In this document: one piece after another, positions 9,737 to 10,021 of the stretch
Layout of the letters: every line of letters starts with the position of its first letter
Position numbering within the stretch: the stretch's first letter is position 1
Made by a program: the position numbers and the translations under genes
From: Escherichia coli
Lineage (GTDB): Bacteria; Pseudomonadota; Gammaproteobacteria; Enterobacterales; Enterobacteriaceae
Strand: one strand, 5' to 3'
Length of the DNA stretch: 64,000 nt
Assembly (NCBI RefSeq): GCF_046105845.1
Contig: NZ_CP151004.1
Notes under the pieces: model-generated
What the model was told of the DNA's origin: nothing
The model's input: only the letters and a program-made list of their open reading frames with translations
Database searches by the model: none

Positions 9737-9790
9737 AGGACATGCCATGAGAACCCAGGTACAGGCTTTACGGAAGAAACAAAAAACACA

Positions 9791-10021
9791 TTGGATCAAA
9801 TACTTAAATCTCCTGTTCCTCAAGGGATTAAGTGGTCTGATATAGAGTCACTGGTTAAAGCATTAGGCGGAGAAATTAAGGAAGGAAGAGGTTCGCGTTG
9901 TAAGTTCATACTAAATATGAGCGTTGCGTGTTTCCATCGGCCTCATCCGTCGCCAGATACCGATAAAGGCGCTGTAGAAAGCGTGCGTGACTGGTTACTA
10001 AGTATAGGGGTAAAACCGTGA
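9791..10021 (+). CDS. HicA-like type II toxin (mRNA interferase family); start ambiguous, possibly frameshifted
   Basis: Frame carries GIKWSDIESLVKALGGEIKEGRGSRCKF...HRPHP...LLSIGV, resembling the HicA/YcfA fold. No ATG in frame: the track starts at TTG 9791, while an SD-preceded ATG at 9747 lies in another frame. 4-bp GTGA overlap with the downstream gene. Confidence 0.5.
   Translation: MDQILKSPVPQGIKWSDIESLVKALGGEIKEGRGSRCKFILNMSVACFHRPHPSPDTDKGAVESVRDWLLSIGVKP

What the first reader, a model, noticed from the sequence alone, without database searches (positions are those of the whole stretch)
9742..9800. HicA-like toxin gene has no in-frame ATG; an SD-preceded ATG sits in another frame across an A6 run
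ATG 9747, with AAGGA 6 nt upstream, opens a frame reading MRTQVQALRKKQKTH... that terminates at about 9842. The HicA-like domain lies in the -1/+2 frame and starts only at TTG 9791. The two frames can be joined by a single-base change in the homopolymer AAAAAA at 9781-9786. This could be a decayed toxin beside an intact antitoxin, a sequencing error, or genuine TTG initiation.
Basis: seen in the sequence. Interest (0 to 1): 0.5.

Follow-up and report, generated by a model that had tools for sequence, protein, structure and literature searches.

The report
Frameshifted HicA toxin gene, intact antitoxin
A small toxin gene of a toxin-antitoxin pair has lost one A from a run of seven, which breaks its reading frame while the partner antitoxin gene stays intact; this is an ordinary, already-annotated kind of gene decay.

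Summary
The ATG frame stops at 9843-9845. Adding one A gives a 91-codon HicA-family ORF.

The lesion is a loss-of-function frameshift of an ancestral A7 tract.
- The yhhJ-hicA-hicB locus occurs in 2073 of 5426 complete E. coli genomes.
- Among the 1280 with the same 5' allele type, 1217 carry A7 with an intact ATG-started frame through the tract. Twenty-seven carry A6, and none carries A8.
- Every A6 allele inspected is annotated by RefSeq as a "frameshifted" HicA pseudogene.
- Homologues in Citrobacter, Klebsiella, Serratia, Dickeya, Xenorhabdus and other genera are 91 aa with a conserved N-terminus.
- The TTG encodes Leu16, which is invariant in 65 family members. It has no SD, and it is CTG in 793 E. 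coli genomes, so it is not a start codon.

A6 sits on at least four different haplotypes, so the tract is a recurrent mutation hotspot.

A sequencing error is unlikely but not excluded. Over 25 kb the window differs from a relative by 617 SNPs but only two indels, this one and an in-frame 18-nt indel.

HicB is intact and under strong purifying selection. No programmed-frameshift signal was found.

Verdict: an ordinary toxin pseudogene of low novelty.

The parts
9686..9713 (+). Putative sigma-70 promoter of the hicAB operon (-35 TTGACT, 16-nt spacer, -10 TACTAT)
   Evidence: The consensus scan scored 9 of 12. The position, 34 nt upstream of ATG 9747, is conserved in all E. coli alleles aligned. 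Function is inferred, not shown.
9687..9734 (.). Imperfect inverted and direct repeats (TGA[T/A]GTCATA units) overlapping the promoter; the likely HicB operator
   Evidence: One search found inverted arms at 9687-9707 and 9714-9734 (21 nt, 76% complementary) and a three-copy direct repeat. The operator role is inferred from type II TA autoregulation. Type B alleles lack 14 bp here.
9736..9740 (+). Shine-Dalgarno AAGGA serving ATG 9747
   Evidence: It lies 6 nt upstream of the ATG and is conserved in type A alleles.
9747..9845 (+). Truncated out-of-frame product of hicA: the authentic start ATG 9747, 13 authentic codons, then 19 frameshifted codons and TAG
   Evidence: ATG 9747 is the annotated start of the intact 276-nt CDS in O157:H7, WW2, CE10 and SC418.
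9781..9786 (+). A6 tract: the site of the 1-nt deletion relative to the ancestral A7 (codons Gln12-Lys13-Asn14)
   Evidence: See the alignments. Genome counts: A7 in 1217 genomes, A6 in 27, A8 in 0. The pairwise 25-kb alignment places the single-base gap here.
9785..10021 (+). Remainder of the hicA coding sequence (Asn14 to Pro91 plus TGA), now out of frame with its start; contains the whole HicA domain
   Evidence: TTG 9791-9793 is Leu16, invariant in 65 homologues.
10006..10010 (+). SD-like AGGGG, 7 nt upstream of the hicB start
   Evidence: Read directly. Function is inferred.
10018..10377 (+). hicB antitoxin gene, intact, 119 codons, GTG start overlapping the hicA stop (GTGA)
   Evidence: One search lists the ORF. 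Pfam HicB PF05534 matches at E 2e-15, with weak Arc and CopG RHH hits. The protein differs by one residue (N94T) from WP_000593555.1 and is identical to AST240 HicB. Among alleles there are up to 11 synonymous against 0-1 nonsynonymous differences.
10380..10419 (.). Terminator hairpin plus T-run between the convergent hicB and class II aldolase genes
   Evidence: One search gives a hairpin of -20.2 kcal/mol with z = -6.57, followed by UAUAUUUUU. The simple scanner missed it because of an internal mismatch.

Best explanation
**What it is.** Window 9686-10419 is a chromosomal hicAB type II toxin-antitoxin operon inserted after yhhJ.

**Ancestral form.** The ancestral hicA has 91 codons. It starts at ATG 9747, served by SD AAGGA, and ends at TGA 10019-10021, overlapping the hicB start. 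Codons 12-14 (CAA AAA AAY) form an A7 run.

**The lesion.** In this window one A has been lost, most simply by replication slippage from an A7-C progenitor of the kind seen in Escherichia sp. E1V33. Ribosomes that start at ATG 9747 therefore leave the HicA frame after Lys13. They terminate at TAG 9843-9845 and make a 32-residue peptide with no HicA domain.

**Residual toxin.** The HicA domain (repaired-protein residues 30-86) could be made only at trace level. One route is -1 slippage of tRNA-Lys or of RNA polymerase on the A run, which would restore exactly the wild-type sequence. The other is weak SD-less initiation at TTG 9791, the Leu16 codon.

**Antitoxin.** hicB keeps its own SD, an intact 119-codon frame and a conserved protein sequence. 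The locus now behaves as an antitoxin/repressor gene next to a toxin pseudogene.

**Shown versus inferred.**
- Shown: the frames, the homology, the population distribution of tract lengths, the conservation of the N-terminus, and the selection pattern on hicB.
- Inferred: the slippage origin, loss of toxicity, promoter and operator function, and that the deletion is biological rather than an assembly error.
For: **Anatomy.**

**Population.**
- The locus is present in 2073 of 5426 complete E. coli genomes.
- An exact A7-T 37-mer occurs in 1217 genomes.
- A6-T occurs in 26 and A6-C in 1.
- A8 occurs in 0.

**Annotation.** RefSeq annotates the A7 form as a 276-nt CDS from this ATG. It annotates every A6 form inspected as a 'frameshifted' pseudogene.

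**Species representatives with the motif.** E. coli E69, a Citrobacter-labelled MAG and Escherichia sp. E1V33 all have A7. E1V33 has A7-C and an intact 91-aa ORF.

**Protein homologues.** More than 50 clusters from other Enterobacterales are 91 aa at 100% coverage. Distant 84-aa homologues begin at the equivalent of residue 8. T15 and L16 are nearly invariant and invariant respectively in 65 sequences.

**Coding signature upstream of the TTG.** Type A versus type B alleles differ in codons 3-15 by 3 synonymous and 0 missense changes.

**Recurrence.** A6 lies on four distinct haplotypes: the SMS-3-5 clade, the O157:H7-like AR-0429, Res13, and the window.

**Assembly quality.** Only 2 indels against 617 SNPs separate the window from SC418 over 25 kb.

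**hicB.** The gene is intact and under purifying selection.
Against: - No reads are available, so a single-base homopolymer miscall in this assembly cannot be excluded.
- The whole Pfam HicA domain lies downstream of TTG 9791. Solved HicA toxins (58-70 aa) lack the N-terminal extension, so a 76-aa product could be active if it were made.
- PGAP annotates a 76-aa CDS at the equivalent CTG in type B alleles.
- Toxicity of the intact 91-aa protein has not been shown. The subfamily has Arg where canonical HicA has its catalytic His.
Confidence: 0.83

Rival explanations
1. Sequencing or assembly error. The source genome really has A7 and an intact 91-codon hicA, and the missing A is a homopolymer miscall.
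For: Homopolymer length is the commonest error type in long-read and some short-read assemblies (general knowledge). 95% of type A alleles are A7. The repaired ORF is otherwise clean, with one conservative F20L change. One A6 case, AR-0429, is identical to A7 O157:H7 across the yhhJ segment and differs in hicAB only by the A-tract length and one missense SNP. That pattern could itself be an error or a very recent event.
Against: - Over 25 kb and 24 CDSs the window shows no other frame-breaking indel against a 2.5%-diverged relative. The whole 64-kb window contains 62 A or T runs of at least 6.
- The same A6-C tract and flanks (identical over the 36 nt tested) are present in an independent genome that differs at about 2% of flanking sites.
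- A6-T is fixed in a clade of at least 6 genomes from different laboratories, including SMS-3-5.
Confidence: 0.11
2. Genuine initiation at TTG 9791 gives a functional 76-residue HicA toxin. The upstream ATG ORF would then be an unrelated leader.
Against: - The TTG encodes Leu16, invariant in 65 homologues that all extend further upstream.
- No homologue starts there. The shortest class, at 84 aa, starts at residue 8.
- There is no SD. The nearest GGAAG ends 14 nt upstream.
- The codon is synonymously CTG in type B.
- Codons 3-15 show only synonymous change between alleles.
- AF2 places residues 10-20 in one confident helix that this start would cut in half.
Confidence: 0.04
3. Programmed recoding. 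The A6 allele would be expressed by regulated -1 ribosomal frameshifting or transcriptional slippage, so that a low, tuned amount of full-length toxin is made.
For: A -1 slip of tRNA-Lys from AAA 9783-9785 to AAA 9782-9784 would give exactly the wild-type 91-aa sequence (derived). A_AA.A is a recognised weak tetramer motif (PMC4066793).
Against: - In the ATG frame there is only a tetramer, not an X_XXY_YYZ heptamer.
- Tetramers without a stimulator give about 0.15% against 0.11% background (PMC4066793).
- There is no downstream structure (80 nt, z = -0.11).
- The configuration is not conserved, because orthologues have A7 in frame.
- A6 is shorter than the runs usually associated with appreciable transcriptional slippage (general knowledge).
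Confidence: 0.02

Closest known systems
RefSeq 'type II toxin-antitoxin system HicA family toxin, frameshifted' pseudogenes at the same locus (e.g. E. coli SMS-3-5 ECSMS35_RS19045; Res13-Sevr-PER07-33 IMQ59_RS01295)
   Same: Same chromosomal site (yhhJ | hicA hicB | aldolase island), same A7-to-A6 lesion and same intact HicB. Res13 shares the exact A6-C 36-mer.
   Different: The window's flanks differ by about 2% from each of them. Its hicB starts with GTG and carries N94T.
Intact 91-aa HicA of E. coli O157:H7 and others (WP_001259385.1, WP_001260301.1, WP_001260303.1) and of Escherichia sp. E1V33
   Same: Same gene. Differs from the repaired window protein at 1 to 5 of 91 residues. Same SD, ATG and overlap with hicB.
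   Different: These have A7 and are therefore in frame.
E. coli K-12 HicAB (PDB 6HPB) and other solved HicA toxins (1WHZ, 5YRZ, 6G26, 4P78)
   Different: - No detectable sequence similarity by phmmer or hmmsearch against PDB.
- This subfamily has a 29-residue N-terminal helical extension.
- It has G-S-R (R51 invariant) where canonical HicA has the catalytic G-S-H. This rests on a motif and secondary-structure register, so it is inferred.
- Its HicB has an RHH-type C-terminus, whereas K-12 HicB has an HTH (own knowledge; classes 4 versus 3 of PMC10865869).
Orphan antitoxins and decayed toxins in E. coli populations (PMC10790755)
   Same: A toxin lost or inactivated while the antitoxin is retained. 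Here about 40% of carriers have a toxin null allele with HicB conserved.
   Different: That study worked at the level of presence or absence, not specific lesions. This case identifies the lesion and its recurrence at one A tract.

Membership tests
HicA toxin family (Pfam PF07927) | Significant match to the HicA_toxin profile | tested here: met
   E 3.7e-9, residues 30-80 of the A7-repaired protein, model positions 1-52 of 58. NCBIfam gave no hit.
HicA toxin family (Pfam PF07927) | dsRBD-like alpha-beta-beta-beta-alpha fold | tested here: met
HicA toxin family (Pfam PF07927) | Adjacent cognate hicB antitoxin gene in one operon | tested here: met
   hicB 10018-10377 overlaps the hicA stop by 4 nt. 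Pfam HicB matches at E 2e-15.
HicA toxin family (Pfam PF07927) | Catalytic histidine in the G-S-H motif at the start of beta2 | tested here: inconclusive
   The family alignment shows invariant G49 and R51 (S50 at least 90% conserved) at that position, and conserved H64 and H67. The register was assigned from the predicted secondary structure. Automatic alignments to K-12 HicA failed.
HicA toxin family (Pfam PF07927) | Uninterrupted reading frame from a start codon (a functional gene rather than a pseudogene) | tested here: not met
   The window has A6 in place of A7, so the ATG frame stops after 32 codons.
HicA toxin family (Pfam PF07927) | RNase activity and growth arrest neutralised by HicB | not testable with these tools
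HicB antitoxin with C-terminal RHH (class 4 of PMC10865869) | HicB profile match plus a ribbon-helix-helix DNA-binding C-terminus | tested here: met
   PF05534 matches at E 2e-15 over residues 60-112. Arc (E 0.022) and CopG (E 0.03) hits fall on residues 76-116. The RHH assignment rests on weak hits.
Programmed -1 ribosomal frameshift site | X_XXY_YYZ heptamer in the zero frame, with a stimulatory element, conserved among orthologues | tested here: not met
   In the ATG frame there is only an A_AA.A tetramer. The downstream 80 nt fold no better than shuffles (z = -0.11). Orthologues are in frame with A7.
Phase-variable contingency locus (simple-sequence switch) | A long homopolymer with both longer and shorter length variants among close relatives | tested here: not met
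   The tract is only 6-7 nt. A6 is seen on four haplotypes, but A8 is seen in 0 of 1280 genomes. Within the SMS-3-5 clade the A6 state is fixed.

The most novel reading that the evidence does not exclude
The A7 run in codons 12-14 of this hicA could be a recurrent 'off-switch'. There are at least four independent A7-to-A6 events plus an A9 (-2 nt) variant. Together with the codon-2 nonsense allele, about 40% of E. coli carriers would then lack the toxin while HicB stays under strong purifying selection. On this reading HicB has a toxin-independent role, for example as an anti-addiction or anti-defence factor against incoming plasmid or phage HicA toxins, or as a regulator. The A6 allele might also retain a trace of full-length toxin through tRNA-Lys slippage.
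Probability: 0.2. Interest if true: 0.4.

Novelty: already known. Interest (0 to 1): 0.12.

Why it matters
It matters little beyond correct annotation.

- hicA in this window should be called a frameshifted pseudogene whose start is ATG 9747. It should not be called a 76-aa TTG-start protein.
- The wider pattern may interest people who study how chromosomal toxin-antitoxin modules evolve: many independent toxin null alleles beside a highly conserved antitoxin.
- The RefSeq 76-aa CTG-start annotation, present in about 790 genomes, probably needs review.

Tried and rejected
- NCBIfam gave no hit for HicA or HicB.
- PDB sequence searches with the protein and with a 65-sequence profile found no HicA.
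- A 37-nt megablast query containing A7 returned nothing, probably because of low-complexity masking. I switched to blastn with 11-nt words.
- A8 and type A A7-C alleles were searched for and not found in complete E. coli genomes.
- hhalign and MAFFT alignment of the family to K-12 HicA mis-paired helix 2 with helix 1. These alignments were discarded.
- A downstream frameshift-stimulating structure was looked for and not found.
- My first codon-comparison script picked the wrong ATG and was redone.
- Literature searches found no paper on this specific yhhJ-adjacent hicAB locus.

Full report
**1. Observation**

- AAGGA lies at 9736-9740, 6 nt before ATG 9747.
- That frame encodes MRTQVQALRKKQKTHWIKYLNLLFLKGLSGLI and stops at TAG 9843-9845.
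- The run CAAAAAAC places A6 at 9781-9786.
- The frame carrying the HicA-like sequence is open from 9725 to TGA 10019-10021. It has no ATG or GTG before TTG 9791 and is -1 relative to the ATG frame.
- Inserting one A gives a continuous 91-codon ORF: MRTQVQALRKKQKNTLDQILKSPVPQGIKWSDIESL...GVKP.
- Residues 30-80 of that protein match Pfam HicA_toxin (E 3.7e-9).
- The next ORF (10018-10377, GTG start overlapping the hicA stop as GTGA) matches Pfam HicB (E 2e-15), with weak Arc and CopG ribbon-helix-helix hits.

**2. Surroundings**

- The operon sits after rbbA-yhhJ and before a convergent class II aldolase / HPr / FGGY kinase / PTS island and the nik operon.
- A promoter-like site (TTGACT, 16-nt spacer, TACTAT; 9686-9713) is overlapped by imperfect inverted and direct repeats of TGA[T/A]GTCATA. 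I take these repeats to be the HicB operator, by inference.
- A strong hairpin with a T-run (10380-10419, -20.2 kcal/mol, z = -6.6) closes the operon.

**3. Comparison across E. coli**

The 711-nt locus is present in 2073 of 5426 complete genomes, always on the chromosome. Two 5' allele types partition the carriers exactly.

Type A (1280 genomes; the window belongs here):
- An exact 37-mer with A7 followed by T occurs in 1217 genomes.
- A6-T occurs in 26 genomes.
- The window's A6-C occurs in one genome, Res13-Sevr-PER07-33.
- A8 and A7-C occur in none.
- AST240 has a different lesion in the same tract, GAATAAAAAAAAAT, which is -2 nt.

Annotation of type A:
- In A7 genomes RefSeq annotates a 276-nt CDS starting at the equivalent of ATG 9747.
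- In every A6 genome I opened, the gene is flagged 'frameshifted' while HicB is intact.

Type B (793 genomes, e.g. IAI1):
- It keeps A7 but has TAA at codon 2, a 14-bp deletion in the promoter repeats, and CTG instead of TTG at Leu16.
- PGAP annotates a 76-aa CTG-start CDS there.

Among GTDB species representatives carrying the motif, all three have A7. Escherichia sp. E1V33 has A7-C with an intact 91-aa ORF. The window's A6-C is therefore one slippage step away from a known intact state.

**4. Which start is authentic**

They come from Citrobacter, Klebsiella, Enterobacter, Serratia, Dickeya, Pectobacterium, Xenorhabdus, Rahnella, Sodalis and other genera.
- More distant 84-aa homologues (Azospirillum, Acidobacteriota) begin at the equivalent of residue 8.
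- In a clean 65-sequence alignment Leu16, the TTG codon, is invariant and Thr15 is nearly invariant.
- Between type A and type B alleles, codons 3-15 differ by three synonymous changes and no missense change, the same pattern as the rest of the gene.
- The AF2 model (pLDDT 89) predicts helices at residues 2-6 and 10-20 ahead of the alpha-beta-beta-beta-alpha core. A start at residue 16 would cut the second helix.
- TTG 9791 has no SD. The nearest GGAAG ends 14 nt upstream.

I conclude that ATG 9747 is the authentic start and that TTG 9791 is an internal leucine codon.

**5. Real mutation or error**

- The window is at best 97.6% identical to any complete E. coli genome over 25 kb, so its source is not in that collection.
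- Aligned to strain SC418, it shows 617 substitutions but only two indels across 24 CDSs: an in-frame 18-nt indel in a DUF4049 gene, and the single A in hicA.
- An error-prone assembly would show more homopolymer indels than this.
- The A6-C tract, identical over the 36 nt tested, occurs in Res13, whose flanks differ from the window at about 2% of sites.
- A6-T is shared by a clade with identical haplotypes: SMS-3-5, CUVET17-1418, M172-1, MINF_1A, GN03551 and CS5L. It also occurs separately in AR-0429, which is identical to A7 O157:H7 in the yhhJ segment and differs in hicAB only by the tract length and one missense SNP.
- A6 therefore lies on at least four haplotypes, which marks the tract as a recurrent deletion hotspot.

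I put about 0.11 on a miscall in this particular window.

**6. Recoding**

- A -1 slip of tRNA-Lys on AAA 9783-9785 would regenerate exactly the wild-type protein.
- In the ATG frame, however, the site is only an A_AA.A tetramer. Such motifs without a stimulator give about 0.15% against 0.11% background in E. coli (PMC4066793).
- The 80 nt downstream fold no better than shuffled sequence (z = -0.11).
- The configuration is not conserved among orthologues.

Programmed frameshifting is rejected. Trace leakiness remains possible but unmeasured.

**7. Antitoxin**

- The window's HicB has 119 aa and differs by one residue (N94T) from the dominant WP_000593555.1. It is identical to AST240's HicB.
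- Its start codon is GTG, where nine compared loci have ATG.
- Among alleles, hicB shows up to 11 synonymous against 0-1 nonsynonymous differences, including in genomes where hicA is dead.
- This fits the known abundance of orphan antitoxins in E. coli (PMC10790755).

**8. Family placement**

- Sequence searches of PDB find nothing.
- The subfamily has a 29-residue N-terminal extension.
- It has G49-S50-R51, with G49 and R51 invariant, where canonical HicA has G-S-H. This is an inference from the structural register.
- The module corresponds to the toxin-first class with an RHH HicB described in PMC10865869.

**9. Verdict**

- The window carries a frameshift-inactivated copy of a 91-codon HicA-family toxin gene beside an intact hicB.
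- The phenomenon and this very lesion are already annotated in RefSeq for other strains.
- Novelty is low and interest is about 0.12.
- The most novel reading not excluded is that the A tract is a recurrent off-switch and that HicB is kept for a toxin-independent role (probability about 0.2).

Noticed in passing
L003 1538-1590 and L007 1509-1560 (equivalent to window 9742-9793): 793 of the 2073 carrier genomes (e.g. IAI1) have a second hicA allele type. It has TAA at codon 2, a 14-bp deletion in the promoter/operator repeats, and CTG at Leu16. RefSeq annotates it as a 76-aa CTG-start HicA (WP_042014162.1), which looks like an annotation rescue of a null allele.
   Followed up: partly
window 9747-9935 versus 9936-10021 (alignment A1): Type B alleles differ from type A at many, mostly synonymous, sites in the 5' half of hicA. 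They are identical in the 3' half, which suggests a recombination breakpoint inside the gene.
   Followed up: no
window 9890-9898 (codons G49-S50-R51 of the repaired HicA): This HicA subfamily has an invariant Arg where canonical HicA toxins have the catalytic His of the G-S-H motif, while H64 and H67 are conserved. It also has a confidently predicted 29-residue N-terminal helical extension and no solved relative detectable by sequence.
   Followed up: partly
window 1-25000: No complete E. coli genome among 5426 is more than 97.6% identical to the window over 25 kb. The source lineage is therefore outside that collection, possibly a divergent or cryptic Escherichia lineage.
   Followed up: no
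window 10018-10020: hicB starts with GTG here, whereas all nine compared E. coli and Escherichia loci have ATG. With hicA translation ending 175 nt upstream, translational coupling to hicB is also lost.
   Followed up: no
window 2329-2346: There is an in-frame 18-nt insertion (GTGAAGACCCCAGCAAAT) in a DUF4049-family gene relative to strain SC418. It is the only other indel in 25 kb.
   Followed up: no
L015 1316-1365 (equivalent to window about 9862-9912): Another hicA null allele has clustered substitutions plus a 1-nt deletion (GGTAGGGG-GGGCGC), giving a 55-aa product. It occurs in 6 complete genomes but on 588 contigs in the protein collection.
   Followed up: partly
L006 1505-1525 (equivalent to window 9770-9790): Strain AST240 has a different lesion in the same tract, GAATAAAAAAAAAT (an A9 run, net -2 nt). 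Its hicB is identical to the window's.
   Followed up: partly
window 9742-9750: A two-codon mini-ORF, ATG CCA TGA, overlaps the authentic start as ATGCCATGA. Its ATG is only 1 nt from the SD, so it is probably not used.
   Followed up: no
L004 2219-2917: In strain CS5L an IS1 element is inserted immediately after hicB, alongside the A6 hicA pseudogene.
   Followed up: no
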